Source: Narcine bancroftii (Eukaryota). From it: a DNA stretch of 64,000 nucleotides. Numbering within the stretch: the stretch's first letter is position 1; each line of letters begins with the position of its first letter. A program made the translations under genes and the position numbers. Positions 35,766 to 64,000 of this stretch are shown here, piece by piece. Under the pieces are notes generated by a model that worked only from the letters and a program-made list of their open reading frames with translations, was not told where the DNA came from and made no database searches. The DNA lies in NCBI RefSeq assembly GCF_036971445.1, contig NC_091474.1, positions 178,250,001 through 178,314,000 of the forward strand, in the 5' to 3' direction.

Positions 35766-35866
35766 CTGATGGTTCTGTCCTACATGGTACTTGCCATGGA
35801 AGGTTAGATCACATAGAATAGGATTCCAATTAGCAAATGTGATTTTTTTTTAAATGGCTTCGTGAT

Positions 35867-38800
35867 TGTTTCATCTTGCATTCAACACATGGATGAAAGT
35901 AAAGGATCTTAACATTAAAGCTGATGTAAACAGAATGAGGCATGACATAAGGCTGCAAGTCTCCATTACAGATCCGCATACTGTGTGTCAAAATTAGACT
36001 GCTGTGGCAGCCAAGTCTAATCAAACAGTAAGGCATTGCAACCACGATCGCTATTGTTACGTCTCCCTTTCTTAAAACAAAAGTAGCCTACTTTTAACTA
36101 ACATATTTTCCTTGTATAACTGTGCAATTTTAACTTTAATACCAAGAACTTATATATTCATTATTATCAACATTGTTAACATTTTTTTTGTGTGTTCATA
36201 TTGGATAATTGGGTGAACAAGATAGCACGACTTCATTCTATAATAGGAGTCTTTAAATTTGCTCTATGAGCCTCTTAGAAGGATTCATGTGTCTTGATGA
36301 TCTCCTGATTGATTGTCCTTGAATTTGAGTTGTTGCCTCAGATGATGTCTTCTCAGCTGTGCATTCAGGTTGTTCAACTGTATCTGTCATTCCATCTTCT
36401 GTGGCTGGTCCCATTTGAAGATCTCGACCATTTATTTGCAGAACAGCACCTTTATTTGTCTGAATGGTGTATGATCTTGGTTGGACTTCACTAGGGACAG
36501 TTCCCTTCTGAATCCATAAGGTTATCTTACTGGTGACAGTGTAGAGTTCCAGTAGGTTTTTTGTTCATCTGTCAAAGTAATACTTTTCCTTTTCTTTCTG
36601 TTGTTCTTTGAATTTCCTCACTTTCTCCCCTCTTTTGTTTTTAGGAGATTCTCCTCAATGGGTAGGTTTGATCTTAGCCTATGTCACATAAGGAGTTGTG
36701 CTGGTGACAGACCACACTTGAGCTGTGTTGTGTAGAATAGTAGTATGCTCTGGTAGAAATCTGTTCCACTGTCTTTTGCCTTGTTCATCAGTCTTTTCAT
36801 TGCCTGTACTGACTTTTTTTCCACTAGACCATTGGACTGTGGAAAATGAGGACGTGATGTGGTGTGTACAAAGACCCACTCTTTTACAAACTGTCGGAAA
36901 TTTAAATTGCAAAACTGGGCTCCATTGTCTGTAAAGACCTCGCTTGCCACGCCATGTCTGGAGAATATGGCCTTCATACCTGTTATTACAGCATCTGCAG
37001 TGGTGGTGTACAGTTTATACACTGGATACAGGGAGTAATAGTCTGTGAGTACAAGATAGTCCTTCCCTTGACATTCAAATAGGTCAGCACCTACCTTCTG
37101 GTAAGGTCTGTATGGTGCTGGGTGTGGCTTTAGTGGTTCTGCAGGATTTATGGCACTTCATTTGTTATATCATTGTTGATTCTTGACCTCTTGTGCTCTT
37201 TTCTTACATTTTTCGATTCTGAGATGTCCTCCATGGATCCTTTTTAGCATCTCCTTTCTCAGACTCTTTGGGATAAGGATTTTGCTTCCTTTGTAGATGA
37301 TGTCTTCAACCACTGATAGTTCGGCCCTGCAGTTCCAGTACTCTGAAACGTCAGGTGAGCAGTCCTGCTTCATGTTGGGCCATCCATCCAAGAAGGGATT
37401 TTTTTCTCAGTTGTCTCAGTTGTTTGTCTCTGACTTTATGAGCTCCATTTTTGCATCTGATATGGGCAGTGCACTTGTGATCATATCCATGAAGGCATTC
37501 ACATCTTCATCCATTTTGTTTATAGGCTCTTGTGTCAACAGCTCTAGACAACATGTCTGCTGTGTACATTAGCCCTACCCAGAGTGTATGCCAGTATATA
37601 ACATTGCATTAATTCTTTATATTCTAAGTGGACATTCATTTAATGGCTTTTGGAACAATGCAATCAAGGGCTTATGGTCAGTCTCTACATTGATTGCTTG
37701 TCCAGACACAAACTGATGAAATCTTTCACAGGCGTATGTAATGCTGAGCAGATCCATTTCAATTTAAGTGTATCATGTCTCTGCGCCTGTCATTGAGAGT
37801 GATGCATATGCAATGGGTTCCCAGTCATTGTATTTTTGCAGAAGAACAGCACTGAGCCCACTATGTGATGCATCTGATGATATCTTGATGGGTCTCACTG
37901 GGTCGTAAAACCTCAGAACTGGTTCCTCTGTGAGCAGTTTCTTTAGTTCCCTCCATGACTTTTCATTGTCATGATCCCACTCCGATTCAATGTTCTTTTC
38001 TGTTCATCTTCTCAATGGAGCAGTCTTTTCTGAGAGGTTGGATATGAATTTACCCATATAGTTGACCATTCCATTAAACATCTGTATGTCCTTTTTGCAT
38101 TGTGGCCTTGGCATGTTCTCAATGGCGGACACCTTTCTGGGATCTGGTCCAATACCCTCAATGCCAATAATATCTCCTACAAATGTTAGTTCTGTCACCC
38201 TGAGCTGGCATTTCTCTCTATTCAGCTTCAGTTTTGCTTTCCTTGTTGCTTCCAGCACTTTCCTTTGTTTCTCATCATGCTCTATTCCTGTGGTTCCCCA
38301 TACTATGATGTCATCCATTGAGGTGTTAACTCCATCCATATGGACCATATGGATAGTTTTGTGATACACTTCAGGAGCTGAGGCAATCCCAAATGGTAAC
38401 CTTAGGAATCTGTATCTGCCAAATGAACATGCACAGTCTTGAACTTGCTTCATCCAATTTCAACCGCCAAAATCCTAATGATGCATCTAACTTGCTGAAA
38501 AACTTTGAATTTGAAAACTTTGAATTTGAAAACTGTGTCAGAAGCTTAAACTGTTTTCTTTGTTGCTCTGTTTAGATCTCTTGGATCCAGGCAAATTCTA
38601 AGCTTTCCATTCTTTTTGGCCACAACAGCAAGTGAACTCACCCATTCTGTTAGCACATCTATCTTCTGAATCATGTGCAGGCTTTTCATCCTGTCCAACT
38701 CTGCTTTTAGTTGCTTTTGAAGCGCAAATAGAACTTTTTTGCATGGAGGTATCATCGGTGGCACACGTTTATCCACTCTGTTCGTATGTTCTCCTGGAAG

Positions 38801-40299
38801 GCAGCCTAGACCCTGAAAAAGGTCACTGTATTCTTTCATGAGTTCATCATAGACTGTCTTTCCTTTGCTTTCCACAACGAGGACTCATTTTGCCATGTTC
38901 AGTTTCTCACAGCTGTTAAACCTAGTATAGCCTGTACATGATGAATGTTACCATGTGCTCTTTGTCCTTGTGTTTCACTTTGACGATGCATTCTCCTTGC
39001 ACTGGTATATCAGTACCTGAATATTCTGTAACCTTCACTTTTGTTCCATACATCTTTGGACTCAGTCTAATCTTCTTAAAATCAGTCTCTGATATTACAT
39101 TAATTTGTGCTCCAGTATCAAATTTAACTGAAATGTATATGTCATTCACTTTTAATCTCAGCATCCAGTCTGTTTTCTTTCTTGTTTTCAGTCACATCTA
39201 CATAGAATTCCTCTATCCCCCTTTCAACTACTGCATGAACCTTGCTTTGTTGCATTTGATTCCAACAGCAGTGGGCATAATCGTTCCTTTAGTTGCACAT
39301 ATTGTATGTTTTACCATATGCTGGACACTTTTTTGGTAGGTGTTGTGTACCGCATCAACGACATGGCTTTCAATTGTCCCTTTCATCTTTGTTCGCTGGC
39401 TACACCTTTCTTTCCACTTTTGTGTGCTTTTTCTTGAACGGTTTATGTCAGTTCTTGCCTACTGCATCCACATTGCAGCTAATTTCACTGAACAGCTCTT
39501 CTGCCTGCATTTTTACAGTTTCTGGCTTTTTCCAGGTCGAGATTTGCTCTCTTAGCAGTCTTTTCCTTAGTCAGGAATACCACACTCAAGTCTATCTTTT
39601 ATCAGCAAGTCGGTCAGTCCACCAAATTCACAAGTTTTGCTTCTGTTTCTCAATTCAGTAACATACTGATAAATACTTTCTTCCACTTTCTGTACACGTA
39701 AAAAATCTGTGCCTCTCAAATGCCATGTTACGTTTGGGTATAGAGTAAGCCTCAAACTTTTCCATTATTTTTTTCCAATTTCATTTTGTCTCCTTCAGCA
39801 GCATTATTATTATACACCTCCAGGGCTTCATCACATGTAAGAAAACTGACATTTTTACTTTATCGCTTTTTTCATCAGCTCCGACTTCCAATAAATATAA
39901 TCCAAAATGCTATTTAAATCTGTTCCAATCTTCAGCCACATGACCTGTCAGCTGAAGTTTCGCTGGTGGATGTAATCCTTCCATTTTTTTAACTGTGTTA
40001 GCTTCTCTTCACCAATCTGTGGCTGACTTTAGATTTTACCTTCAAAATATGTCCTTTTAATTTCCTTCATCCCAGTTCTGATACCATGTTTCATCTTGTA
40101 TTCGTATGTGTGAGTTCTTAGACAATACATGGATGAAGGAAAAGGTTCTTTATTTTAAAGTTGATGTAAACAGCACATGAGGCATGCCATGAGGCATTAC
40201 AGGTCTGCATACTGTGTATTATCCCTCTGCTGGTAGCCAAGTCTAATCAAACAGTAAGGCACTGCTAGTTGCATTGCAACCATGATCTCTATCATTACA
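35867..40299 (-). mobile_element. Decayed full-length Gypsy LTR retrotransposon (Mag-like)
   Basis: LTRs 40299-40087 and 36061-35867; PBS TGGTATCAGAACTGGGA (40086-40070, tRNA-Leu-like); PPT AAGAAAGGGAGA; gag ATG at 39984, protease FDTGA, RT RLPFG/MDDIIVWG, integrase TDNG; many stops and frameshifts. Confidence 0.93.
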
Positions 40300-41399
40300 G
40301 AGTTCATTACAGGTTCAGAGTCGGTTTTAGTTTTTTTCAGACTAGAAGACCTTATGTTTCTGTACTAGGACCCTTAAATTTTTTAATATATATGTAAATA
40401 GGATTTTTGGGCTAAGGTGAATAAATTTGCTGATGGCATAAACATATGTGCTACAGTGGACAATGAAGAAGGTTGATAGCGTTTACAATGGGTTCTAAAT
40501 TGGATGGGACTATGGTAATGAATGCCAGATGCAGTTCAACCCAGAGAAGTGTGAGGTGTCACAATTCCATCAAATGAACCTGGCAAGACTTTTTCTGCTA
40601 ATGGCAATACCCTAAACACTGTTATGGAGCAGGGGGACCAAGCATGCAGGTGCTTAGCACTTTAAAGAGCACAGGTAGACAAATAGTGAAGGATATCATG
40701 TGGATATCCTGCGAGGTATTGATGAGACCACACTTGCAATAATGTGCACAGTTTTGTTCACCTAGTGATTAAAAAGATATGATTAAGTTAGAAAGTGTCA
40801 GAACTGGTTTTTGAATGTTATTGCCAAGATTAGGGAAGCTATTGTGAGAGACTGGAAAAACTAGGCCTATTTTCCTTAAAGGAAATATTCTCAATTTGAG
40901 AAACTATCTCATTGACAAATCATTGGTGATACAAATACAGAAAAAAAAATCTTTCTGCATCAAATTATGATTATGTGAAATGAACTGCCTGATAGAAAGG
41001 TAGAAGTAGGTTCAATATTATAAGCATTTAACAAAAATAATCTCAGTGGAAACATTTCAGGGATATGTGGAAAAGGACATTGAGCTCATGGATGGCACAT
41101 CGAATGGAAAAGCTTGGATGGCTTCTTCCATGCCACATTGTTCCATGATTTTATGAAACATAATCCCAAAGATGAGATAAGGGATGGGGGAAAATGAAAA
41201 TATGGCCATTGTCAAAAAGTATGAAATCAACACAGAATTTAAATACATACTGAAAACCACAAAATATACAACACACAACACTGTACCAAAATCTAACCTT
41301 CAGGATCTTCTGTGATTTCTTCCTTTGTGCCCTTTCCTCAAACTCAGGCCATTTTCTACCCTTCTTATAAAACCATCTAATCTTAGAATAAAATAGAAT

Positions 41400-44300
41400 A
41401 ATAGAACAGGCTTGGAGATTAAGGAAGAGAAAGTGTTGGATCTTCTTAAAAACTTCAAATTGATAAGTCCCTGGGGCTGGATGCAATATATCCCAGGTTG
41501 CTGTGGGAAGTGAGGGAAGAGATTGCTGGGGCAGTAACAATGATCTTTGAGTCCTCTTTGCTGCAGGGGAGGTGCCAGAGGATTTAAGAATGGCAAATGT
41601 AGACCCCTTGTTTAAGAAAAGCAATAAAGAGAATATTGGAAATTTGTAGACTGGTGAGTCTTATGTCAATGGTGTGCAAATATTGGAGAGGATTCTTAAG
41701 GATAGGATCTATGAGAATCTGGAGAAGCACAGTCTACTCAAGGATAGTTACCATAGTTTTGTGAAGGGAAGATCGTGCCTCATGAGCCTTATTGAGCTTT
41801 TTGAGGAGGTAACAAAATAAATTGTTAAGGCTAGGGTGATAGATGTGGTTTACCTATATTTTAGTAAGGCATTTGACAAGGTCCCCCATGAGAGACTCAT
41901 TCAGAAAATGATGAGGAATGGGATCCATGAAACCTTGGCTGTATGGATTTTTTTTAATGGCTTGCAGGTAGAAAGCAGAGAGTAGTAATGAAAGGAAAGT
42001 ATTCTGCCTGGAGGTTGATGACTAGTGGAGTTCCCCTGCTCTTTGTGATTTTTATAAGTGACATGGATGAAGAGGCAGAAGAATCAGTCAGTAAGTTTGC
42101 AGGAAGGTTGGAGGAGTTGTGGATGGAGCTGAAGTTTGTTGAAACTTACAAGAGGATAGAGACAGGATGCAGAGATGGGCAGAAAAGTGGCAGATAGATT
42201 TCAATCCAGATAAGTGTGAGGTAATGCATTTTGGAAAGACAAATCAGAATGCTGAATACAGGGTTAATGGTAAGTTACTTGAGAGAGTAGATGAACAGAA
42301 GGACCTTGAGGTCCAAATCCATACATCCCTCAAAGTTGCCGCACAGATAGGATAGTTAAGAAGGCCTATGAGATGCTGGGCTTCATTTATAGGGGGATTA
42401 AGTTCAAGAGTAGAGAGATGTTGGGCACTATCGGTAGCACCAATAATGATGCAGACAGAAGACTCAGGCGAAAAATAGGCTTTATTGAGCTAGAGACTGC
42501 TGGCCCAGGTCTAGGCTAGGAAAATGAATGGGAAGGAGAGGGGACTTGAGCTTTATGGCCCGGGGTCACATGGGCAGGACTAAGGGAGGAGCTAAGGCAG
42601 GAGGCCGGGCCAGCCAGTGCATATAATCATATCACCACATTCACCCCCTTTTTTAAAAAAGGACCCACTGGTAAACAACAAAACTGTGGGCGAAAACAGC
42701 ACCAATTCAACAATGCAGCAGTATTTAACAATTATTAACCAAAGTGGTGGGAGAAGCGGATGCCTCCCACTGGCTAGAGGTTGAGCCGCACAGGCGGCCT
42801 CTTCTGTCTGCCGGACTGCCAGGGAATTGGTGTGTCCATACAGTGCTCCTCTGGAGAGGGGGCCGACGGGGGAGTATCCTCTACAGGAACTGTGAGAGTT
42901 GGGGTGCTGGCGGTGGACTCCAGGAGTGCTGGGGGATTCTCCACGAGGGATAGAAGCCTGGACGTCCGCTGGCAAGACAGGCAGCTTGGACTCCAGGGTC
43001 ATGCTCAGATGTAGCTCCATCGGGTCCATGGCGTGGTCAGCAGCTGGCAAGACAGTCTCGGGGTCTCCAACCCTTGCCAGGTCTTGTATGGGCACAGTGT
43101 CCTCGTGGCCATCCAGGTACCTCATAAATGCGTATTGGCCTCTGACTTGCTTCCGAAGGAGAACTAGTCCTGGGGTTGTCAGCCAGGGAGGGAGGGATGG
43201 AAGAATCATTCACCGACCTCCTAGGAAAAGCAGAGAGGTGTTCATGCGGGGTGGTGTTAGTAGTGGTGCACAGTAATGACCGGATGGCGGGGAGAGCTTC
43301 AGGAAAGATGTCCTGCCAGTGGGACACTGGCAAATGTTTGGACCTAAGGGCCAGGAGCACTGCCTTCCAGATGGTGCCATTCTCCCTTTCCACCTGGCCA
43401 TTACCTCTGGGGTTATAGCTGGTGGTCCTGCTGGTGGCTATGCCTCTGGTCAAAAAGTACTGAAGCAGCTCGTCACTCATGAACAAGGTCCCCCAGTCAC
43501 TATGAATATAGTCGGGGTACCCGAACATAGTGAAGATACTGCTCAGGGCCTTGATGACTGTAGCTAAGGTCATATCCGGGCAGCGGATTGCAAAGAGGAA
43601 CCTGGAAAATTCGTCCACCTCTGTCAGGTCGTAGGCGTTCCTATTTGTGGACGGGAAGGAGGCCCTAGAAATCGATGCTGAGTTGTTTAAAAGGGCGGGT
43701 GGCCTTGATGAGGTGTGCCTTTTCTGGCCGGTAGAACTGGGGCTTACACTCGGCACAGATCTGGCAGCTTCTGGTCATGGATGGACATTCTTGACTTGAT
43801 AAAGTGATACAACCTCGTGTCTCTGGGATGGCACAGATCATGTTGCAACTCTACAAATCTCTGATGAGACCACACCTAGAATATTATATTCAGTTCTGGT
43901 CACTTCTGCATAGGGAGGATGTGGAAGTTATGGAGAGGGTGCAGAGGAGATTTACCAGGATGTAATATGGATTGAAAAATGTCTTATGAGGCAAGGTTAT
44001 CAGAGCTGGAACTTATCTCTTTGGAGCATAGAAGGATGGGAGGAGACTTAATAGAGGTCTTCAAGATTATGAGAGGCATAGATAGGGTGGACAGCCAGCA
44101 CCTGTTTCGCAGGGCAGGAATAGCAAACACCAGAGGATAAATATACAAAGCGAAGGGAGAGAAGTTTAGGGGAGACATCAGGGGTAATTTTTAAAAAAAT
44201 ATTTTTACACAGAGTTGTGTGTGCTTAGAATGCCTTGTGAGGGATGGTGGTGGAGGTGGTAACAGAAGGGACATTTAAGAGACTTTTAGACAGGCACATG

Positions 44301-44420
44301 GATGGAAGTAAAATAGAGGATTACAGGGTAGGAAGGGTCTAGTACTTTTTTAAGGAATATATGGGTCAGCACAACATCAAGGGCCAAAGGGCCTGAACTG
44401 TTCTCTAGTGTTCTATACTC
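41400..44420 (+). mobile_element. CR1 ORF2 3' half, interrupted at 42419-43837
   Basis: EN-RT linker and RT motifs (FSKAFDKVPH; WAEKWQIDFNPDKCEVMHFG); continues past the insert as MLQLYKSLMRPHLEY. Confidence 0.88.
42419..43837 (-). mobile_element. One-ended Gypsy fragment: integrase + PPT + 3' LTR
   Basis: Integrase LCHP...DEFSRF...IHSDWG...GNGQVER; PPT AAAAAAGGGGGTGAA; LTR 42639-42419 (TGTGGTGA...CA). Confidence 0.88.
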
Positions 44421-45034
44421 TATGTTCAGAGGGAATATTAATGAAGTCTATAAAATCATGAGGGTGATACACAAGGTGAACAGTGACAGACCCTCTCTAT
44501 GAAGTAAACTATCTGAAGGTGAGTGGTGGTATTTGGAAGGGATGGAAGGGGACATTTCAGTCAGAGGTTGAAAATAAGATTTAATATTTATCTATCAAAA
44601 AGGAAACAGTGTATTAAAAGATCTTACTAAACTTCAAGAAGACTGTCAGGAAGAAATGAAATGAAGTTGGCTGGACTTGATAAGTCACAAGTATCTAGCA
44701 CACTAATGTGACCATGCTCTGCTTTCTCTGAGTGAAATTACCATCTTACAACAATCTGTACTGTGCCTCCCTAAATAGTGGGAACTGGGCTAAACCTGAC
44801 AAAAGCAGAGTTATGGGTCTGCTCTAACTCATGTCCAAGAGTTGAAAATGCAGCAATTATCATCTGCCAGTTACCCAATCCATCTGCTCATTTAATTGAT
44901 GACATTCTACAGCACATTCCAATCATTTCACATTTGACTCTGAAAACAGAACTTGATGCATTGACCATTTGTGAGCAATGTCAGATGGCAAACATTATAC
45001 ATTCAATTGGTAATTTATCTTTCTGATCATTCAG

Positions 45035-45154
45035 TCATCAGAGATTCCAATGTTGTGCAGCTGGACGTAGATTCTGAAGTAAATCATGTTGTGGGACCTC
45101 TGACATCACTTGCTTTCAACACCAAGATGCCTGTGTTTGTTGGAGGAGTGCCAG
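45035..45154 (+). CDS. LAMA4: LAMA4 exon 17/18 (LG5)
   Basis: cag|TC...G|gtaaat; VIRDSNVVQLDVDSEVNHVVGPL...PVFVGGVP, N-terminal part identical to recalled human sequence. Confidence 0.96.
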
Positions 45155-46185
45155 GTAAATGAAGTGATTAAACCTGTGTGCAAAAATGGAAAATGTTGCA
45201 AATGTATTATTTCAAGCAAGAATTATTTGAGATACAGTTTTTAGCTTGGAGGTCATTCTATATTGCATTTGCTACTTTATCAATAACAGAATGGAATGAG
45301 GGGAAATATAAACTTGATATAGATTAATACCCCTGGTATCCGGCACTAATGGAGATTAGTAGATGCAGGATGTGTAAATTTTCATCTTGCTGGAAATTGT
45401 GTATTACGTGACTGGTGAGTTGCACCAATTTTAAACTTCATTATTTTTTTTTAACCAATTTATTTTCTGTGATTCCCCCCCCCCGGAGTTGCTTGAGGCT
45501 GCCAGTTGATTGAATTCCAGATAACGGGTTTTACTGGATCATGAAAGACTCAGATTTGTGATCTTTGCCTTTCATATACAACCACTTTAGGAACAAGGAA
45601 TTCCTTTTCACACAAACCTAGCTTGTGTTCTTAATCGAGCTGAAATTAAACCGGTCAGAGAAACATGAGAACATATATTTCTGACCTTTTTCTGCAAGCA
45701 AATTTAAAAGAAAATAAGCTCAGGAAAAGGTGGACAGTTGCTGACAAAACATTTTTTTACTGGTGTTTACTCAGGGAAGTGAGATAAGTGCAAGCACATT
45801 GGGGTGTTTACGTCGATTCTCCAGGCTGTTGACTGGAACTGCAGCAATGAAACATGTAAAGCAGCAGGTTGAAAACCAAAATCATCTGCTATTGTGTATA
45901 TTGTATATTGGTAATATTCATACTTTTCCTAATATGAGGGAACTTAGCTTATTACTTTTTAGTCAAAAGTAAAGTAGTGCAGATGGCATAAATCTGAAAT
46001 AAAAGCCAAACATTACATAAACATTTAATGGATTAAGTAGCATCTGGGAGAAGAGTAACAAAGAAATGTGAATGTGAAATGGTATCGACCCAGAAAAATT
46101 TAAGTTGGGATTGTTTGTTCTAGCTTATAGATATTAATTTGCATTGAAACAGTTTGAAGAATAATTTTCTGTTCTATTTACTTAG

Positions 46186-46337
46186 GGTCACTGCTTAGCC
46201 CAAAACTGAGCATACGGCAATCATTCGCTGGCTGCATGAGAAACTTCAACATCAATGGAATTCCTGTCACCTTCAGCAAAGCAGCACTTGTCAGTGGAGG
46301 AGTCAGCATCAATTCATGCCCAAGCCCAGCAGCTTAG
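46186..46337 (+). CDS. LAMA4: LAMA4 terminal coding exon 18/18
   Basis: tag|GG...TAG; SLLSPKL...FAGCMRNFNINGIPVTFSKAALVSGGVSINSCPSPAA* (human ...SKAALVSGAVSINSCPAA*). Confidence 0.96.
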
Positions 46338-51110: not shown

Positions 51111-52421
51111 TCATCTTTGGATGAGCAGGTTTTGTGCCATAAAACATTGTACCAGAAGACATGGTATTACAAGCACAGCAATCTGCATTTTATAACATCT
51201 TTATAATGAAATTTGTGTCTTCTCTCAATGGAATATTGCCAAACAAAATATTACAGATAACTAATGTAAGGTGATATCAAGCTAACAACAGAATGAAAGG
51301 AATAAAGGGCAAAACAAAAGCAGAAGGGTTTAGGACAATTTGATTTTAAGACCAATCTGAAGGTTTTTAAAAAAAATTTAATTTTTCACACTATGAACCA
51401 TATTGACCAAAATACACATAAACATTTCACTCTTGAATATACACAGTGTCATTTTCTCCCTTTTTACCCCCTCCCTTCCCACTCAACGTTCAACGCATTG
51501 ATGCGATGTGCTCTAATTAAAGACGGAGATGAACAGAGGACATAATTGGAATGAGCCAGATAGAATTGGTTAAGTCTGCAGGAGGCTGAAGAGAACAGGA
51601 AAGAATGTCATGAAGAATTGGAGGCCAAAAAGGTGCTTAAATTCATACTTTCCTCAACTAGAACTCAATGAAACTCATTTAGTGTCACAGTCCCAGCATC
51701 CTGGATTCGGTTCTGACATCCACTGTTCTCTGTATAGAGATTACACATTCTTCTTATGAGCATGTGGTTTTCTCTTCATATTCAAAATATGTGGATTGGT
51801 TTAGTTAATTGACTGGTATAAATTACCCCTGGCTTGCAGGTGCATGTTAGAATTTTGGGGTAGTCGACAGGAATATGGGAAGAATAGAATGAGTACAGGT
51901 GGGAGTTGTGATCAGTGTGGTCTTACTGTCTCTCTTAATGACCAACTTCAACAGTGAGTGAAAAGGAATTATAAAACATAAGATTAAGAATGGAGTTGAA
52001 TGATGCAAATATGGCCAAGAGTGCAATGAAATAGTCATTGTATGGAACCTACACATCTCAGAGATAATACTTGATAAATACATTTCATATACCTTCACTA
52101 CAGTTTAAGGGTGGGTAAGGAATTGTTCCAGAATTTTGGAGGCACAGTGAACAATGTCAAATCTATCCTTGCCTTGAACTTGCAACAGTTACTGAATCAT
52201 TAATTAATTGTAGAAATAATGAGTCTGAAGTTAATATGTCAGATGTTTTACTGACACAAATAGACTAGCAACCTCAACTGAAGATCACCAGTTATGAAAC
52301 AACTTTTCAGATGCAATGAAGAAACGACGACCCTCAGTGTCGCGCATCATCTCCGAGATTTCATTTGCTGAAACTGAATGAAAGGTGCTGATGCGATGAG
52401 TTGTTAGGAAGTCTGTCCTCG

Positions 52422-52515
52422 TTACAAGTTTGAAGGTCTTCCCATGGTAACATAGACGTCAACAGGCACATTCGTAATCGTCAGGCAGTGACTCCCATTA
52501 CATCTTCTAAGTTGC
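52422..52515 (-). CDS. FAM229B: FAM229-family protein, last coding exon
   Basis: Minus strand cacag|G CAA CTT AGA...TTG TAA = (R)QLRRCNGSHCLTITNVPVDVYVTMGRPSNL*; matches recalled human FAM229B RQLRRCPGSHCLTITDVPVTVY; convergent with LAMA4 as in human. Confidence 0.9.
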
Positions 52516-55500
52516 CTGTGCAATCCAATAATTCCAGTTAATGTATGTGTATATTGCCATAAAAAGTAATAAAACATTAACAATGAAATTGGCACATTTT
52601 AATGCAATTACACAAATTATCAGGAGAAACCAATGACCACCGTCAGAATTATTTTCTCTTTGCTCCGTTCATTGCACCATGAAGACTACTTTTGAAAACT
52701 GGTCTCAAAAATTGGGACAATATTTTTATGTTTCAATGCTCTTCCAGATTAGTTCATTAATGAATGGGGAAGTAGTTCTGGATAGGGGAAATGCTTGCAA
52801 TTGAATACAAAAGTTAAGATTGGGAATCTGAATGTAGGTAGTGTAGGAGTACTCACTATGCTTTGCATATATCTAGAAAACTATCATATGCTTACATGGC
52901 TCCAAGTTAAGCACTTGAGGAATCTGCAACCACCAGCCAGCTTTGTATATGTTCAATACGTGGGCAAATTCTTTCTTGCATCCAGATGACTAATTCCCGA
53001 GACATAAGCAAAGTGTAGGAGCAGCCACATTGAAGGGTTCCAAAATGCAAACAAGGATACTGTTATTTTACCACATAAAGTGAACTATAGTTTCTTCATG
53101 GTGCTTGTTTAAACCGAGGCAACATTTTGGGTTGAGACCCTTGCTTCTGATACAGATGCTCAACCTGAAGCATCAACTTCCTCGGTCTCCACTGATGCTG
53201 CGAGTCCCACTGGGTTAATCCATACATTGGTTTTTGACTCCTACTGACAGGTCCATCATTCATAAATTAGAATGTCCAATTAGTTGCCAACAGTGCCAGA
53301 CTGATTCAGGGATTTGATGCTTGCATCCATTAGTGTGGTCATCTGGTTTGCAACTTGCACTCCATTAAGTTTCAAGGAAAGAGGAGATGCTACTTGTGGC
53401 TCACTGGGTTGAATCATCAGGATTCAGTCCACTTCTAGGACCTGCTGTCCACGGTGCCTTGCCTTCTTCAAATGCAGAGGGCTGACTGAACAAACACCAT
53501 ACAACAGAGAAGCCTCCCAAGAGCATGCCTGCAGAGCATCATGAGCACAGGGCCTGGAGATAAACAACTTGCAAATTTCTTTTTGCATTTCTGATAATGA
53601 GGTTATCCCTATTAGAGTGGGGTCACAATTTGTTAATAAGTCATCCCAGGTGCAGTCTGACCATCTTTTTCCATTGTGTCACTGCTCTCTTGCTACTCAG
53701 TGATGAGTCCACCAATGCAGTGAAACTTGCCAGCTCCTGACCTCAAGTTCAACTCAGCCTTGCAAAAAGCATGTGTGGCAAGCTGAAGATGTTAAAACTC
53801 AAATACCTGAGAGCCAAGTGTTCAAAAGGGGAAACATGAACTGTCATTCAGCAAAATCAGGCCATTTTATGAAATTAAGTAGAGGGCCTACATTCGTCAC
53901 ACATGTTCAAAGCTGCTTCTTTGCACAGCATGTTAAAACAAAGTTAATAAAATACCGTCTTACCTAAAATAGACACTTAACAAAGAAATACAAAATAAAA
54001 ACAAATGTTTTTTTTTATGGATGGTACAATCATGTTTCATATTTTACTGTTGGAAAGCAGAATCCACTACATAGTGAAAAAAGGACCAAATATTGATAAA
54101 TTCATCATAAGAGATGAATTACTTTAAAAAAAATGAATGGTATATTCTGTTTTCAAAAAGCCACCAAAGAGCTTCTCAAATAAGTTATTTTGAAGTCTCT
54201 TCTCTGTTGCAATGGAGAGAAACACAGTCAATCTGCATTCAGCAAGATACCACAAAAAGCAATGAGTTATGTGACCATTTATTTTGTTTTTTTAATTTGT
54301 TAGTTTTTACATTTAAATGTTTAAAATTTTAGACATACAGCATGGTAACATGCCCTCTCGATCCACAAGCCTGTGTTATTATGTGTGTCTAATAAAGAAC
54401 TACATTCCACAGAAGGTAATGCACGCAGTCTGTGCTGGAACAAAAAGTAGACCACGACAGAAGTTGAGTGAGCTGTTGGTTCAAGCAGCTCAAAAATTAA
54501 AATTGTTTAAGAGTAAAAACCACACACATTTGTTCTTCTTCAAGGAAAATATAACATGGTGTCAGAAGTGTGTGAGTAAATAAGAAAATACAATAGTTCC
54601 TGTCACACCAATGCAGCTTACTAGCAATCTAACCGATAATTGGAAACAATTCAAACAGCAATTCAACATTTAGAGGCTGGTGGTGCAGGAGTGATTAATG
54701 AAAAACAGATAGCATCTATATTTCTACACGTGATGGGTGAAGATGCCTTGGACATCTATAATGGTTTTCATTTCACATTGGACACTCTGATGACAAATTT
54801 GAGGAGCATTTTTTCCCCAAGTTTCCCCTGTGACCAGAAACAAGGTATGAGCTTCAACTAGTACTTAGCCTTGCTTCACACCCTGAGTAAGTCCTGTGAA
54901 TTTGGAGATTTGAAAAATTCACTCATTAGAGACAGAATAGTTTGCAGAATCCCAGATAGTGGACTTAGAGAAGGACTGTTGCTTGAAATCGATTTGACAC
55001 TGGAAAATGTTGCGATTATGTGCAGGGCAGCAGAGACCACACAACCGCAAACTAAGGAGCTGCACAGGATAAACACAAAAGTGCATGCAATGAAAACAGA
55101 GAAGCAGAGCACCAGGAGTTTCCCAAAGCTAAAGCAAAGAGCAAATGCTCAGACAGCAAATGCAGCAGGTATGGGGGGTGGGGGGAAGGGGTAGGCATAT
55201 TCCAAAGATGTGTCCTGTCTATGGAAAGTCCTGCAATAAATGTGGAAAAGTGCAAGTGTGCAAAGTGCCGCAAAGCAGAGCTACCAAGGGAAAGGTGCAC
55301 GCAATGAATGAAGAAATGGAGGAATTTTCAGTTGATACATGACAGACAGCTGCTGGTAAAAAGCAATGAATTTATCCAGCGATTGTGAATGAGACAGTAT
55401 TCCATTTAAGATCAACACTGGATCTCAGATGAATCTGTTATCTATGGATGATTACAAGACCCTCACCGTAAAGAGCAAGATTTATCCAGTGAAGTTCAAA

Positions 55501-55754
55501 GTGACGGGCCATACAGGAGAAAATGTTCCAGTAAAAGGGGGTTGTATGGTGATCTTCATACACAAAGGGCAGCACCTAAAGTCACAGCTACTAATTGTAG
55601 AAAAAAATAGTTCAGCCAATATTAGGTCTGAGTGCATGTGAAGAGTTCAAGCTGGTGAAGAGTTTTTCATTGTGGCTTCACGGACCGAAGATGAGCACAC
55701 AATGCTCAAGAAAGAATATACAGATGTCTTTGAGGGGTTTGGATGTTTATCTGG

Positions 55755-57360
55755 TGTACAAAAACAAAGGCGAGAAATCAGACTGCTCAAACTGCAGGGG
55801 AATCACGCTGCTCTCCATTGCAGGCAAAATCTTCGCTAGGATTCTCCTAAATAGAATAATACCTAGTGTCGCCGAGAATATTCTCCCAGAATCACAGTGC
55901 GGCTTTCGCGCAAACAGAGGAACTACTGATATGGTCTTTGCCCTCAGACAGCTCCAAGAAAAGTGCAGAGAACAAAACAAAGGACTCTACATCACCTTTG
56001 TTGACCTCACCAAAGCCTTCGACACCGTGAGCAGGAAAGGGCTTTGGCAAATACTAGAGCGCATCGGATGCCCCCAAAGTTCCTCAACATGGTTATCCAA
56101 CTGCACGAAAACCAACAAGGTCGGGTCAGATACAGCAATGAGCTCTCTGAACCCTTCTCCATTAACAATGGCGTGAAGCAAGGCTGCGTTCTCGCACCAA
56201 CCCTCTTTTCAATCTTCTTCAGCATGATGCTGAACCAAGCCATGAAAGACCTCAACAATGAAGACGCTGTTTACATCCGGTACCGCACGGATGGCAGTCT
56301 CTTCAATCTGAGGCGCCTGCAAGCTCACACCAAGACACAAGAGCAACTTGTCCGTGAACTACTCTTTGTAGACGATGCCGCTTTAGTTGCCCATTCAGAG
56401 TCAGCTCTTCAGCGCTTGACGTCCTGTTTTGCGGAAACTGCCAAAATGTTTGGCCTGGAAGTCAGCCTGAAGAAAACTGAGGTCCTCCATCAGCCAGCTC
56501 CCCACCATGACTACCAGCCCCTCCACATCTCCATTGGGCACACAAAACTCAAAACGGTCAACCAGTTTACCTATCTCGGCTGCACCATTTCATCAGCTGC
56601 AAGGATCGACAATGAGATAGACAACAGACTCGCCAAGGCAAATAGCGCCTTTGGAAGACTACACAAAAGAGTCTGGAAAAACAACCAACTGAAAAACCTC
56701 ACAAAGATAAGCGTATACAGAGCCGTTGTCATACCCACACTCCTGTTCGGCTCCGAATCATGGGTCCTCTACCGGCATCACCTACGGCTCCTAGAACGCT
56801 TCCACCAGCGCTGTCTTCGCTCCATCCTCAACATTCATTGGACCGACTTCATCCTTAACATCGAAGTACTCAAGATGGCAGAGGCCAACAGCATCGAGTC
56901 CACGCTGCTGAAGATCCAGCTGCGCTGGGTGGGTCACGTCTCCAGAATGGAGGACCATCGCCTTCCCAAGATCGTGTTATATGGCGAGCTCTCCACTGGC
57001 CACCGTGACAGAGGTGCACCAAAGAAGAGGTACAAGAACTGCCTAAAGAAATCTCTTGGTGCCTGCCACATTGACCACCGCCAGTGGGCTGATATCGCCT
57101 CAAACCGTACATCTTGGCGCCTCACAGTTCGGCGGGCAGCAACCTCCTTTGAAGAAGACCACAGAGCCCACCTCACTGACAAAAGACAAAGGAGGAAAAA
57201 CCCAACACCCAACCCCAACCAACCAATTTTCCCCTGCAACCGTGTCTGCCTGTCCCGCATTGGACTTGTCAGCCACAAACGAGCCTGCAGCTGATGTGGA
57301 CATTTACCCCCTCCATAAATCTTCGTCCGCGAAGCCAAGCCAAAGAAAGAAAGAAGAAGA
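55755..57360 (+). mobile_element. RTE-clade LINE copy 3 (complete RT domain, 5'-truncated), nested in Gypsy pol
   Basis: YKNKGEKSDCSNCRGITLL...FVDLTKAFD...KQGCVLAP...LFVDD; 1-bp frameshift in a C-run at about 56070; (GAA)n tail. Confidence 0.95.
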
Positions 57361-57847
57361 AACAAGATCCACATAGATCAGACAGTGGCTCCTGTCATTC
57401 ATGCATGCAGGAAAGTTCTGTTTCCACATAGACACAAACTTAAACAAGAACTAGCGTGCATGGAACAGATGAAAGTCATACAAAAAATTTAAGAACCTAC
57501 AGATTGTTCAGCTCACTGGTCATTGTGCAAAAGAAAAATGGAGCACTGTGTTTTTGTCTAGACCCAAGAGATCTTAATAAAGCCATCAAGAGAGAGCATT
57601 TTAAATTGCCGACATGGGAGGAAATCATGACCCAGTTTGCAGTGCCAAGTTTAGCAAGCTCAACTCGTCATTTTTGGCAGATGAAGCTCGATGAGACTCA
57701 CTTTCAATACTCCACAAGGAAGATACCATTTTCTCTGGCTATTATATGGGGTCTTGTCTGTACCAGGTCTACCATAAATCTATCCACATGATTTTTAAAA
57801 GTATACCTGGATTTGAGACCATGATAGATGACATCATTGTATGGGGG

Positions 57848-58536
57848 TGTAATGAGTGAGAAAATAGATTTGATGGGTCCCAAAAGCAAGGATTCTGAGT
57901 GCAATGTTGTAGTAAATGATTTTATTTACAAAAGATAAACATAGGAAATGGCAATGGGGATAGCACACACACGTGCAGGAAAATCACACCGGCAATGAAA
58001 GGCATGTGCACAATCTACAGATGAATGTGGGGGAAAAAACTGCAGCAAGGATGAAATACACGCACACACAATTAACTGGGTACATATAATAATCAAAGAA
58101 AAACTAATACGATACCCACCACCCCTTGGCTCAGTGCAGGTGTGGCTTTATGCTACAAGGGACACTAATTAAACACTCCCAACCTATAAGAATCCACACA
58201 TTACTAACAACTTCTCCAGCACTGTTCCACAGTTCTAGACCTGGAGTGAACCAGGATTGTCCCAAGGTGGAAAAGAGAAATAACCAAGCACCTGTGGTGC
58301 ACTTTATAGCACTGGAAGGGTGGGGGATGCATCCCAGATAGTCAATAGCTCGGTGCTAACAAGGATATTCTAATTACAATAGCCAATGGCCTAAGGCCAA
58401 GTACAATGGAATTTAAATTTTACAAGATGTGCACTAATGGGTGGGGTGGGGACAAACCTTGATTGGCAGATGGTGTGTCTTCTGACAAGGTGGTGAGCAA
58501 TGCTGTTAAGTGAAAGCCACGACATTTCACAATACA
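57848..58536 (-). mobile_element. Long solo LTR (689 bp) nested in Gypsy RT
   Basis: TGTA...TACA ends, TSD GGGGG/GGTGG; splits DDIIVWG|SIKNEHD; AATAAA and TATA-like motifs on - strand. Confidence 0.8.
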
Positions 58537-61019
58537 GGTGGTCCATCAAGAATGAACACGATACACAATTATGGCAAGTGCTTGACATGACACAGAATGT
58601 TAATTTGAGATTAAATAAAGAGAAATGTGAGTTTGGCATAAAGACACTGACCTTTATAGGAGATTCATATCTGAACAGGGAGTGAAGCCTGATCCAAGAA
58701 AGACATCAGTCATTGAGAATTTTGTGAGGCCCCAAAACAAAGAGGAGGGGAGATGTTTCTTGGGGATGATGACTTAACTGGTTGAGTTAATCCCTTGCCT
58801 GTCAACTGTGTCAGCACCACTTAGGTCACTCCTTTAGCAGAAAAATGAGTGGATCTGGTCACTTAAACAAGAAAAGTGCTTTCAGGCATTCAAAAAAGTC
58901 TTAAGAGAAGAGCTTGTACTAAAATTTTTTGATCCAGATAGGTGCACCAGGATCTCAGCTGATGCATCCCGACATTGTCTTGGAACAGTACTACTGCAGC
59001 AGCGTGAAGACAAATGCAACCTGTGGCCTGTGCATCAAGGGATTTAAGAAGTGTAGAAGCCAACTATGTAAAAATAGAGACAGAGCTTCTTGCCAGCACT
59101 TATGCATGCAAAAAGTTCCATCAATACATTTATGGACAAGCTCTTGAAGGGGACACAAATAAACCAGTGGTATCAACTATGTCCAAACCACTGAATGACT
59201 GTCCCTTGAAAGTACAATGCATGCTGATAAGGCTGCAGAAATATGATGTGAAAACTATCTACATGCTAGGAAAACATTGGTTTGCAGCTGATGCACTGTC
59301 TTGAGCAGTTGACAAGAAAGAAAAGGGTAATCAAGAGGATAATGTGTAGATTATCACTTCATTTCCAGTATCCTGGGATAGAACAGAGCAGATCAGGGAA
59401 ACAACAGAGACAGATGAAACAATGAAATGAAATAACTCAAAGAATGACTGTCCAATGGGTATTTGGAATTATTGGACATGCAGAGATGAACTGTTGGTCT
59501 TCAAGAGGGAACAGGTTTGTGATTCCAGTGTTGCCATACAAGAAAATGCTCCAGAAGATACATGAAGGACATAGTGGTGCAAAAATGCAAAAGTAGAGAT
59601 CGAGAAGTATTGTACTAGCCAAGAATGAACCCAGACCATTGCTTCATGCAAAATATGCCTTACCTATAGACCAAAGCAGCAAACAGAACTGCTTACACCA
59701 CACCCTGTACCAGACAGACTGTATTTTAAAATTGGAGTAGATTTGTTTGACTGTAATTAGAAGAAATATAGTAGTAATAGCCTAATTTTCCAATTACCCA
59801 GAGGTAACAACACCGCAGTCAATGTGCAGAAAGCGATTATTGTTTTCATGAAAAATGTGTTTGCAAGACATGGAGTTTGCTATGAAATATTATCAAACAG
59901 TGGTCCACAATTTTCGAGCAGTGAATTTGAGTTCTTTGCCAATACTTGGGGGTTTTGGCATACAACTTCAAGCCCACATTTAATAGCATAGCAGAGTTGG
60001 GTCAAGGTGGTGTGATTGGCTGGTGTTTCAATGTAAAGTGACCCTCTAATAAGAGGGTCACTACAGAACGGCCTTTCTCCTGTCCAAATGCTGATGGGTC
60101 GACACATACAGTATGTACCAACCTTCCAATGCGTGAAAATCTGTTGACACCTAAAGGAGCACACAAGGTCAAACAGGCTAAAATGGAAGAGAAAGTAAAA
60201 CAAACAGTTTCATGATAAGACTGCAAAATGCCTACCAGTTCTGTAGCCTGGAGTTCAAGTGGGAATCCAAGATCACAATTCTGGCACATGGTCCACGCAA
60301 GGATATGTGCAAGAGGAAATAGATCCACATTCCTACCAGATCCAGACAGAAGGAGGACACATCTGAGAAGGAACCACGTGGATCTTCAATTTCAAACTCC
60401 AAACCATGATCATGACCCATCACCTGAAAGGGAACAGCACATGTAGAAAAGGAACATGCTGTTCGTGGTTCACAGAAAGACACAAGGACTAACGCAGCAA
60501 ATGCAAGCAATACACCAGTGGAAACACATACCAGACCAAAACGGACTGTTAAACCATCTGAGAGACTGATTGAAAGCTGCGGAGTGGAAAGAGACTGGCC
60601 ATGGAATGTAGATACCCTTGTTATATAGACATAATATTGTGTTTTTCTTTTAAAAAAAGGGGGAAAGATTGTTATTATGTTGGGTTGGGCATGGGGGGAA
60701 AATAAATTAGAAGTGAAACTAAAAGCTATTGAATTTTGGCTTGTTTTGAAAAGAAATCTTGAAACAGTTCACAAACTTAAATGAAATTCAACCTTTTCTT
60801 GCATCCAAGAGCCTGTCCAAAATTATTTTAAATGTTCCTATTGTACCAGCTGCTACCATCAGCAAATAAATTATTCTCTTTCTGTGCAACAAATATTTAT
60901 TATTGTGCATTATTAATCATCTAATTAAGACCTTTTGATCACTGACTTAAATTTTCTAGCTTTGCTTCTCAATAAACTTGTGCATGATACATTAACTTTT
61001 GGAATTTCTTGATGTTACA

Positions 61020-61470
61020 AAGTTCACCAGGATGTGGCCTTGATCGGAAAACAAGTCTTATGAGGCAAGGTTAACGCAACTAGGGCTTTTCTCTTTGGAG
61101 CAAAGAAGAATAAGAGAAGACTTAATAGAGGTCTATAAGATTATAAGGCATAGATAGGATGGACAGCCAACAGCTTTTTCCCAGGGTGACAGAAGCAAAT
61201 ACCAGAGGACATCTGTATAAGGTGAGGGGAGCAAAGTTTATGGGAAATGTCAGGGTAAGTTTTATTTTGTGCACAGAGAGTAGTGGGTGCCTGGAATGGT
61301 GATGGTAGAGGCTGGTACAATATGAACATTTAAAAGACTCTTGGACACCTACATGGATGGAAGAAAAATAGAGGTGGATATTAGGTAGGAAAGGAGTTTG
61401 TTGAATAGGTTTATAAACGTTGGCACAACATCTTGGGCTGAAAAGCCTGTACTGTGCTATAATGTTCTAC
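61020..61470 (+). mobile_element. CR1 3' fragment
   Basis: SYEARL..LGLFSLEQRRIREDLIEVYKII. Confidence 0.8.
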
Positions 61471-61726
61471 TTTATTAAAAAAAACAATATACTACATGGA
61501 GTGCTGTCATAAAACATAAACTACCCCCATACTTTTAAAATATAATAAGGTGATCAGAAATTATGTTTTGTTAACAAGTCTTCACAACTGCCTACTGGCT
61601 ATTGGGAGTAGATGGCTGTCAATTGAGACGCTCTAGCCATTAGCCTGTGATACCTTTGAATGTCAATAAGAGCGGTTAAGCCAAACACACAAAATGAGAT
61701 ACTGTGAAGTGTGTGTAATATCTTAC

Positions 61727-61893
61727 CGTCCATGATAGGGTGAAGGGAATACCTCAGTGCATACCTCCCAGTCTGAAGTGGAACCAAAGCGTTGCTGCAT
61801 GGCTCCCGTTTCACCCCGACTTTCCACCGACATCAAACTGTCTCCTGCCTCCAGAAATCTCCTGGACTGCATAGCCGTCAATTCACCCGTCAT
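61727..61893 (-). CDS. FAM229B: FAM229-family protein, first coding exon
   Basis: aacaatATG (A at -3); MTGELTAMQSRRFLEAGDS...FPSPYHG + CG|gtaaga donor, phase 2, which completes CGG with the next exon; RRF..EAGD family motif; acceptor candidates at about 61904-61918. Confidence 0.85.
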
Positions 61894-61964
61894 ATTGTTG
61901 GCTTCTGAGCTGCAGCTAGGTTGGTGGGTGGTTGAAGTAGAACAGAACATTTCAATAAAGAATA

Positions 61965-62450
61965 ATAAAGAAACACAAAAGCTGCAGATGCTGGAATCTT
62001 GAGCAGAAACAGATATGCCGGAGGATCTCAGCGGGTCGGGTAGCATTTATGGGTAGAAATGGTCAGTCAACATTTCAGGTCTGAATCCTTTATTAAGACT
62101 AAGAATGAGGTGAAATTACATTTATAAAGGGGGGAATAATCTGGGAGAGAGGCTGAAGCATAGGATAGAAGATGTTAGAGGTGGAGAGATAGGGAGAGGG
62201 AGAAACCATTAGGAGGGGTGAGAGAGAGAGCGAGAAGTAAGTACAGGAGTAGTTAACGAGATGGAGAGATGGTAAGCCACAGTGAAATCAGATGGGGGAA
62301 GTTTACAAATTAGAAAACTCAACATTTGTACCATTGGGTTTAAGGCTGTCCATGAGGAAAATGATGTGTTGTTCCTCAAATTTACATTTGGCCTAAACTT
62401 GACAATGGAAGAGGCCAAGGACGAACTGTAGCAATGGTTGGGGAAAATTA
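61965..62450 (-). mobile_element. Penelope-like 3' end fragment
   Basis: Degenerate KFEEQHIIF..DSLKPNGTNVEFSN (GIY-YIG C-terminus) plus ctgcagatgctgg tail motif. Confidence 0.6.
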
Positions 62451-63799
62451 AAATGGTTGGCTGCAGGATGCTCAAGCTTAGACCCACACAGTGTAGGTAA
62501 GGCAGAGGTTTACCTGCACTTCATCAAACCTAATCTACTGCATTCAATGTACTACACTGGAGAGACCAAACGCTTGGCCAAACACATCTTGCTTCAAGTT
62601 CCTCCAGCAATTATTTGTCTGCTCGACAGAAAAGAATTCTGTCTCAACACATCTCTGCCCAAAGCCTGAAAATTGCCTATTTTAATATAAACAAGAACTA
62701 AAATATTTGATTTTGAAATGAACAAAATGAACAGTTTCTTGAAAGAAACAGGTTGTCTGAATTTCTCGTTGTGAATAGAATCTCATTAATTCACCATTTT
62801 GATGTTAACTATTCTAATGTTTATAAAACATTTGTGTTCAGTCTTGTACACATTTATCCCTCACCTGCCTTGCCTGTAATGTATTCTATTATTCCATCAA
62901 ATACACCCACAGCAGATAGCTCAACATGGTTATTTCTGCTAAGGAAATGGATTTCCTGAGAAGCCAAATTGATGTAGGCTGGAGATGCAAGACACAAAAG
63001 TGCTGAATGTACTCAGCAAGTCACTCCGCATCCATGGAAGGCAATGGGCACTTAATGCTTTGAGCTGGAACACTTCTTCAGGCATGCCAAATAGTAGGCA
63101 AATGCCACAAGAAGGGGGCAGGGGTATAGGGGGAGAAGCACAGCCTAGCAGGTGATGTGGACACAGGTGGGAGGGGAAGAGAAAGAACTTAAAGGGGACT
63201 GGATATGCTGGAACCTGAAACCACACAATCTGATGGAGGAACTCAGTGGATCAAGCAGCAATAGTAGGAGAAAAAGAATAATGGACATTTCGGAATGAAG
63301 AGTCTAGGTTTGAAACCTTGTTCATTTTATTTTTAATCCCACTGGTCCTACTTGACCCACTGAGCTTGACTGAAGTAGCCTGGGTTTATACTTAACGAGG
63401 TCCCAGCTCTTGAAATGAACAGCCAGTCCCAACCGTAAAACAATACTGCAAAGAGAAGGGGTAAAGCTTCCATGGAGATCCTTGCAAATGGGTCGTCCTC
63501 ATATTTTAAAAAAAGAACCAACATCAAGCGGAAATAAGCGCAGGCATTTAATAGCAGTTCCCAAAAGGAACCTCCAAGGGCACTGTATGACTCGCTTCAA
63601 GTCTTGCTTCTGCTTTCTGACAATCTTGCTGATTTTAATTACATCATTAGCGCCTCTCTTTCAAGGTCGAACGTTATAATAAAGAATCCATCAGTGAATA
63701 ACAGGAATAAAACGGACTGTCAATCTTGTTGAGACCCCACAGGGTTTTAAAAACGCCTCTTAACACATTTACAATGACAACTTTGTCCTGTTCCTACAT

Positions 63800-64000
63800 C
63801 CTGCTCAGATCGCAACGATGCGGGTGCTTAATATTTTGGGTCGGCCGGTAAGAGCTGCGTTACCATAAGAAGATCTCCCATCAATGATAATGAACAGCCA
63901 CACCGTTGCTTCTAGTCACCGTAGTCAGCCTTTGGCTTGAGATCTTCCCCGTTTTACTCCCGGGAGCGCGGCCGTGACGCCAAGTGTCACAAAGACGCTC
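63800..64000. promoter_or_regulatory. Edge of CpG-rich region, candidate promoter (FAM229B, possibly bidirectional with TUBE1)
   Basis: Sharp rise in CpG (tcggccgg, ccgggagcgcggccgtgacg); CRE-like TGACGCCA at 63975-63982; about 2 kb upstream of the FAM229 ATG. Confidence 0.5.

What the first reader, a model, noticed from the sequence alone, without database searches (positions are those of the whole stretch)
52422..61893. Hidden 86-aa FAM229-family micro-gene with mixed A/B paralog features
Seen: two minus-strand exons join in phase (CG|gt...ag|G) across a 9.2-kb intron. They give MTGELTAMQSRRFLEAGDS...YHGRQLRRCNGSHCLTITNVPVDVYVTMGRPSNL*. The conserved exon is below the ORF-track cutoff. Recalled knowledge: human FAM229B lies tail-to-tail with LAMA4 and is poorly characterised. 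Inference: QLRRC.GSHCLTIT is B-like while EAGD and DVY..MG are A-like, so this may preserve the pre-divergence state. The RRFP[IV]E motif appears shortened by one residue. The conserved C-x3-H-C could bind metal.
Basis: partly seen in the sequence, partly recalled or inferred. Interest (0 to 1): 0.7.

Follow-up and report, generated by a model that had tools for sequence, protein, structure and literature searches.

The report
Ordinary FAM229B gene of a ray
This is a real, spliced 86-amino-acid gene, the ray's counterpart of the little-studied mammalian testis and cilia gene FAM229B; the same genome holds a separate FAM229A in a matching block of neighbouring genes, so the two likely arose in an early vertebrate genome doubling and the 'mixed' residues are old states that sharks kept, not a pre-duplication gene.

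Summary
The gene is real: two coding exons join in phase to 86 aa, the last exon hits Pfam UPF0731/FAM229 (E 1.3e-12), and transcript contigs bridge the 9,211-nt intron in 3 of 4 runs. It is not a pre-divergence relic. The genome holds a second copy, FAM229A, on another chromosome, and four gene pairs (HDAC, MARCKS, FAM229, BSDC1) lie in the same order and relative orientation at both loci. The window copy sits beside LAMA4, is 76-84% identical to FAM229B of four other cartilaginous fishes, and groups with mammalian FAM229B (98/95). The 'A-like' residues (EAGD, DVY) are in all shark A and B proteins and were lost in mammalian B; much of the 'B-like' string is in shark and bird A. The shortened RRF-E motif is a derived mark of cartilaginous-fish FAM229B. 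Extras: a stop that trims six residues, a frameshifting alternative donor, and an overlapping upstream ORF. Function is likely that of a disordered two-motif adaptor in flagellated cells (inferred, about 35%). The scan earlier noted the neighbouring second BSDC1 in another shark; FAM229 itself was not reported.

The parts
63864..64000 (-). Non-coding 5' exon of FAM229B (5' end not determined; may run past the window edge); ends in ATG|GTAACG, CpG-rich
   Evidence: Joint 61915/63864 with intron ends CT..AC in 4 contigs of run X1 only; CpG obs/exp 0.95 at this place
61727..61915 (-). First coding exon: 22 nt of UTR, ATG at 61893, N-terminal RRF-L-EAGD motif and variable linker
   Evidence: Sequence and translation; contigs cover 61726-61917 in X2 and X3
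61759..61767 (-). Alternative 5' splice site GAG|GTATGC after 61765, 38 nt upstream of the main donor; shifts the frame, giving 45 aa without the conserved core
   Evidence: Joint skipping 9,249 bases in X1 and X4, 2 of 4 runs; translation
61883..63881 (-). Out-of-frame upstream ORF on the spliced RNA: ATGs at -40 (63881) and -25 (63866), stop at +8 (61885-61883), overlapping the main start
   Evidence: Reconstructed from the joint; translation not shown
52516..61726 (-). 9,211-nt GT-AG intron, phase 2, same position as in the FAM229A paralogue; holds retrotransposon remnants
   Evidence: ORFs at 55601-57294
52422..52515 (-). Last coding exon: conserved FAM229 core with C-x3-H-C, then stop TAA at 52424-52422
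   Evidence: PF14982 E 1.3e-12; 24 of 25 core residues identical to four other cartilaginous-fish FAM229B proteins
52404..52421 (-). Read-through remnant behind the stop (five codons and a second TAA) that matches the six-residue tail kept by relatives
   Evidence: Translation behind the stop against P0002-P0004, P0061; contigs of X2, X3, X4 show no other letters here
51377..52421 (-). 3' UTR; contigs reach 51431, candidate poly(A) signal ATTAAA at 51382-51377
   Evidence: the 3' end itself is not shown by contigs
271..46337 (+). Neighbour LAMA4, last 18 exons, tail-to-tail with FAM229B (stops about 6.1 kb apart)
   Evidence: tblastn of P0063, 94-100% per exon; names of hits

Best explanation
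The locus is the transcribed, spliced FAM229B orthologue of a ray, one of two FAM229 copies in this genome that likely arose in an early vertebrate whole-genome duplication, and its protein likely works as a small, mostly disordered adaptor in sperm-forming and ciliated cells. Shown: exon structure, splicing, family, second copy, colinear gene blocks, distribution of residues. Inferred (about 0.85): the duplication was a genome doubling before cartilaginous and bony fishes split. Inferred (about 0.35): two short conserved motifs (N-terminal RRF-x-E[AG]GD; C-terminal core with C-x3-H-C and an alternating hydrophobic stretch) joined by a free linker dock on a partner protein, the core folding only when bound, possibly sharing a zinc ion; FAM229A could stand in for it. 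The 'A-like' residues are ancestral states lost in mammalian FAM229B.
For: PF14982 hit. Junction in 3 of 4 runs. Exactly 2 PF14982 matches among 22 candidates scored in the genome; the second is a 73-aa two-exon gene with the same intron position, 84-86% identical to shark FAM229A-like. Window locus: LAMA4, BSD-domain gene, tubulin gene; second locus: BSD-domain gene and kinase; sheep and cattle papers list FAM229A with BSDC1, TSSK3, HDAC1, MARCKSL1 and FAM229B with LAMA4, TUBE1 (PMC11161479, PMC8454143; passages). The only two MARCKS-family loci found and two HDAC loci flank the two FAM229 genes in the same order and relative strand. Tree: window + shark B + bat B 98/95. Residue tally. For the mechanism: 11 invariant columns all in the core, linker varying from 22 to 38 residues in full-length shark proteins; AlphaFold2 of the skate orthologue pLDDT 50 overall, 70-78 in residues 61-80, no regular fold; mouse and human expression in late spermatocytes/early spermatids and fertile knockout (PMC7401351); ciliated-cell marker list (PMC10357887).
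Against: The tree is unrooted, rests on 82 columns, and warns that long branches meet at the B/A split; the AU test did not reject a clade of all cartilaginous-fish copies (p 0.11), so orthology leans on gene order. Mammalian B rows are bats (and one seal in the tally); no human, mouse, amphibian, coelacanth or cyclostome sequence was held. The runs are RNA only by the tool's guess, from one study, tissue not on record. No partner, structure or metal binding was shown; no PDB relative. A low-confidence model from 25 sequences does not prove disorder. This copy shows a shortened tail and a frameshifting splice form, which could mean relaxed constraint.
Confidence: 0.9

Rival explanations
1. The gene is a pre-duplication or mosaic FAM229 that preserves the state before A and B split.
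For: It carries EAGD and DVY like FAM229A and LTIT like FAM229B. In the unrooted tree the five cartilaginous-fish B rows form one side of a branch (52/66), so the tree alone cannot exclude a basal position.
Against: A separate FAM229A exists in the same genome in the mammalian A neighbourhood, and this gene lies in the mammalian B neighbourhood. Only two genome copies were found. It shares both true B marks (LT[IV]T 4/4 shark B and 16/16 mammal B, 0 in A; Y.T 4/4 and 15/16, 0 in A) and has derived features of its own (one-residue deletion, longer linker).
Confidence: 0.03
2. The two ray copies come from a duplication within cartilaginous fishes, or the A/B pair from a local block duplication rather than a genome doubling.
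For: AU test does not reject a clade of all cartilaginous-fish copies (p 0.11).
Against: Each copy keeps the neighbours of a different mammalian paralogue; four gene pairs are colinear over 0.35 and 1.7 Mb on two large chromosomes; the free tree splits the copies with starred support.
Confidence: 0.04
3. FAM229B is decaying in this ray: a transcribed gene under relaxed selection, on its way to a pseudogene.
For: A stop trims six residues kept in 4 of 4 other cartilaginous-fish species held; an alternative donor removes the core in 2 of 4 runs; out-of-frame upstream ATGs overlap the start; end branch 0.13 against 0.04 for skate; mouse knockout is fertile.
Against: The core is 24 of 25 identical to other sharks, the one change being I to V; the frame is intact; the FAM229A copy of the same genome has an equally long branch (0.14), and LAMA4 is more diverged from catshark (75%) than this gene (83%).
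Confidence: 0.03

Closest known systems
FAM229B(-like) of cartilaginous fishes (Leucoraja erinacea P0003, Scyliorhinus canicula P0061, Chiloscyllium punctatum P0002, Callorhinchus milii P0004)
   Same: 76-84% identity, same one-residue deletion in the N-terminal motif, same long linker, 24 of 25 core residues; in Chiloscyllium the locus tags of FAM229B and LAMA4 are consecutive
   Different: Six residues shorter at the C-terminus; I to V in the core; A to V in the linker at the alternative donor; V to M at residue 8
Mammalian FAM229B (bat sequences P0017, P0041-P0054; mouse/human from papers)
   Same: Pfam UPF0731; LT[IV]T and Y.T marks; LAMA4/TUBE1 neighbourhood; human 5'UTR also holds an upstream ORF (PMC5473865, passages)
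   Different: 44% identity to P0017; mammals have EGGD and [TN]VY; a BSDC1-like gene lies between FAM229B and the tubulin gene here; the human upstream ORF is described as very short, the ray's is 11-16 codons and overlaps the start
FAM229A (own genome C17; sharks, reptiles, birds, marsupials)
   Same: UPF0731 core, EAGD, DV[YF], same intron position and phase in the own-genome copy
   Different: 43% identity to the own copy; FP[IM]E motif full length; LT[IL][PL] instead of LT[IV]T; lies beside BSDC1 and a TSSK-type kinase

Membership tests
FAM229 / UPF0731 (Pfam PF14982) | Profile match above the curated cut-off | tested here: met
   48.2 bits against 27, E 1.3e-12, last exon alone
FAM229 / UPF0731 (Pfam PF14982) | Invariant core residues Q L . 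R C . G . H C L T | tested here: met
   Alignment A1, 25 rows
FAM229 / UPF0731 (Pfam PF14982) | N-terminal RRFP[IV]E[AG]GD motif | tested here: met
   Present, one residue shorter as in 4 of 4 other cartilaginous-fish B proteins
FAM229B orthologue group | Neighbourhood LAMA4 / TUBE1 / MARCKS / HDAC | tested here: met
   the tubulin gene is called epsilon-type from recall, Pfam gives only tubulin family
FAM229B orthologue group | Clade with mammalian FAM229B | tested here: met
   98/95 in a 22-row unrooted tree, with a long-branch warning; AU test of the shark-only alternative not significant
FAM229B orthologue group | B-only residues LT[IV]T and Y.T | tested here: met
FAM229B orthologue group | Testis / ciliated-cell expression | not testable with these tools
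   Tissue of runs X1-X4 not on record
FAM229A orthologue group | Neighbourhood BSDC1 + TSSK3 + MARCKSL1 + HDAC1 | tested here: not met
   That neighbourhood belongs to the C17 copy
Pre-duplication single FAM229 | Only one family member in the genome | tested here: not met
   Two loci
Zinc-binding Cys/His motif | Four conserved ligands and measured metal binding | tested here: inconclusive
   Three conserved candidates (C, H, C) in all but one protein scored; a fourth ligand is not conserved; binding itself not testable here

The most novel reading that the evidence does not exclude
FAM229A and FAM229B are an undescribed ohnologue pair in the HDAC-MARCKS-FAM229-BSDC1 block, intact on both sides in cartilaginous fishes; the residues common to shark A and B define the ancestral working surface of a vertebrate microprotein that docks, perhaps through a shared zinc site, on a flagellar or spermatid partner, is dosed by an upstream ORF in both ray and human, and hides its function in single knockouts because the paralogue stands in.
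Probability: 0.2. Interest if true: 0.55.

Novelty: new member of a known kind. Interest (0 to 1): 0.2.

Why it matters
Modestly. It adds a probably unannotated small gene to this ray's genome and corrects the reading of FAM229 residues: EAGD, DVY, QL and GSH are ancestral, and the mammalian paralogues each lost some. The colinear block dates the A/B split to before jawed vertebrates diverged and suggests a double knockout as the right test for a gene family whose single knockout is fertile. It does not reveal a new kind of gene.

Tried and rejected
Pre-duplication reading: rejected (second copy, gene order, tally). Gene-specific decay: unlikely (control branches equally long). Heme-type CxxCH motif: present only in reptile and mammal FAM229A (GCH 29 of 29 scored), absent in shark, bird and all B rows, so not a family feature. 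PDB sequence search with alignment A1: 0 hits up to E 10. ESM Atlas: no usable hit for skate FAM229B or catshark FAM229A. AlphaFold2 model too weak (pTM 0.15) for a fold search, so none was run. Homodimer of the core with zinc: no verdict, score 0.02, no evidence either way. All-against-all ORF comparison of the two loci was swamped by repeats and was redone strand-specifically. P0021 and P0023 were left out as long repeat proteins matching only the linker. No listed run is on record as RNA; contig depth was far higher in X1 than in the other three runs but cannot rank expression. The start of transcription and any read-through from the BSDC1-like gene could not be examined. Literature searches for FAM229 evolution gave no paper on it; supplements were not read and subscription journals are not covered.
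Full report
Observation. 61893-61727 and 52515-52422 on the minus strand join in phase 2 across a 9,211-nt GT..AG intron and give 86 codons and a stop. The last exon matches Pfam PF14982 (UPF0731, the FAM229 family) at E 1.3e-12; the first coding exon alone matches nothing. Four public runs of one study hold the locus; none is on record as RNA. Their contigs skip exactly this intron in 3 of 4 runs, with 192 letters on the shorter side in two of them. A processed copy in DNA is an unlikely source, since the genome search gave only two FAM229 loci, both with the intron.

Organism and neighbours. The plus strand holds the last 18 exons of laminin alpha-4; one exon is 100% identical to a protein named LAMA4 of Narcine bancroftii and 81-93% to those of other sharks and rays, so the window is likely from an electric ray. 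FAM229B and LAMA4 are tail-to-tail, their stops about 6.1 kb apart. Beyond the window's right edge lie a BSD-domain gene on the minus strand and a tubulin-family gene on the plus strand (the label epsilon-tubulin is from recall).

Close relatives are already annotated. A search with the last exon found 4 proteins among 4 candidates, all from cartilaginous fishes and named FAM229B or FAM229B-like where named; a catshark one came from cluster look-up. Identity to the window protein is 76-84%, and 24 of 25 residues in the core. No protein from this locus itself appeared in these searches, so it may be unannotated; that is not proven.

A second copy in the same genome. The family search found 2 matches among 22 candidates: this gene and one on contig C17. 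The C17 gene has two coding exons, 73 codons, the full FPIEAGD motif and the same intron position and phase, and is 84-86% identical to shark FAM229A-like proteins. Upstream of it lie a TSSK-type kinase (Pfam kinase; subtype from recall) and a BSD-domain gene. Five exon segments of the BSD gene next to the window match the C17 BSD gene in order. The only two MARCKS-family loci found and two HDAC loci flank the two FAM229 genes. On C15 the order is HDAC(+) 176.63 Mb, MARCKS(-) 176.75, FAM229(-) 178.30, BSD(-) 178.32-178.34; on C17, read backwards, HDAC 140.61, MARCKS-like 140.59, FAM229 140.29-140.30, BSD 140.25-140.28, with the same relative strands. Passages of two livestock papers list FAM229A with BSDC1, TSSK3, HDAC1 and MARCKSL1 in sheep (PMC11161479) and FAM229B with LAMA4 and TUBE1 in cattle (PMC8454143). 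Each ray copy thus sits where a different mammalian paralogue sits, and the two blocks look like products of one large duplication before cartilaginous and bony fishes split; a whole-genome duplication is the inference.

Tree. 22 rows (the two own copies and 20 of the 60 FAM229 proteins held; 82 columns) put the window gene with shark B and bat B against all A rows at 98/95, and the C17 gene with shark A at 97/93. Against this: the tree is unrooted, warns that long branches meet, gives only 52/66 for the five shark-B rows, and an AU test does not reject a clade of all cartilaginous-fish copies (p 0.11). Orthology therefore rests on tree and gene order together.

The 'mixed' residues. A tally over 58 of the 60 proteins (two partial ones left out; one reptile row lacked the core) shows: EAGD and D-V-[YF] in every A row scored and in 4 of 4 shark B, but 0 of 15 and 0 of 16 mammalian B; Q-L-R in all rows but the 9 mammalian A; GSH in shark A, sturgeon, bird A and all B. 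These are best read as ancestral states lost in one or other mammalian paralogue. Only LT[IV]T and Y.T separate B from A, and the window gene has both. The one-residue deletion is in 4 of 4 shark B including the chimaera and in no other group, so it is a derived mark of that lineage.

Peculiarities of this copy. (a) The stop falls where relatives have a Gln; behind it five codons and a second stop match their tail, so six residues were lost; contigs of three runs agree with the genome there. (b) A donor 38 nt upstream is used in 2 of 4 runs and gives 45 aa without the core; skate, catshark and bamboo shark have Ala at that codon, which cannot begin with GT, so the donor is likely new (inferred from protein only). 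(c) A non-coding exon ending at 63864 is spliced to 61915 in run X1; two out-of-frame ATGs (-40, -25, weak contexts) open a frame that stops at +8, across the main start. Human FAM229B has a 5'UTR with a very short upstream ORF that responds mildly to DENR-MCTS1 knockdown (PMC5473865, passages); homology of the two is not shown. Decay is not supported: FAM229A of the same genome has an equally long branch, and LAMA4 is more diverged than this gene.

How it likely works. Nothing here shows function. All 11 invariant columns lie in the 20-residue core, the N-terminal motif is the second conserved patch, and the linker varies freely. AlphaFold2 on the skate orthologue gives mean pLDDT 50, pTM 0.15, with 70-78 only over the core and no regular secondary structure; there is no PDB relative. 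[quoted passage not shown] I commit, at about 0.35, to a disordered two-motif adaptor that folds on a partner in flagellated cells, with FAM229A as possible stand-in. C-x3-H-C offers three ligands only; a zinc site would need a partner, and is untested.

Novelty. A new member of a known family with annotated orthologues in four cartilaginous fishes. Seven searches found no paper on FAM229 evolution; other hits were seen as listings only, and no supplements were read. Interest 0.2.

Noticed in passing
G000:C15:178318641-178337737 (-), just beyond the window (L003-L005): A second BSDC1-like gene between FAM229B and the tubulin gene; five exon segments colinear with the C17 BSDC1 at 48-71% identity, BSD domain over the Pfam cut-off. 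Full exon set and expression not checked.
   Followed up: partly
G000:C17:140292225-140303499 (+) (L008, L013): FAM229A of this genome, 73 aa, 11,054-nt intron, beside a TSSK-type kinase on the opposite strand inside a long CpG-rich stretch.
   Followed up: yes
P0020, P0025: Records named FAM229B(-like) from a sturgeon and a cat group with FAM229A in the tree and lack the B marks; probably misnamed.
   Followed up: partly
Hits: B-type proteins came only from cartilaginous fishes and mammals; none from birds, reptiles or ray-finned fishes among 23 representatives. May mean repeated losses or only thin sampling.
   Followed up: no
window 55601-57294 (+), 33518-34651 (-), 2606-3088 (-): Near-identical copies of a reverse-transcriptase-encoding LINE-like repeat (label recalled), also on C17 at 92-100% protein identity and very abundant in the runs; one copy lies inside the FAM229B intron.
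   Followed up: no
window 36253-39661, 42592-43774, 54862-55194, 57444-57791: Broken LTR-retrotransposon-like ORFs (integrase- and RT-like, labels recalled) in LAMA4 and FAM229B introns.
   Followed up: no
window 20127-20795: Three tandem copies of a unit of about 243 bases in a LAMA4 intron, with a relative on C17.
   Followed up: no
window 61872-61870 (-): Second in-frame ATG (Met8, Val in relatives) 10 nt behind the stop of the upstream ORF; could allow a 79-aa form.
   Followed up: no
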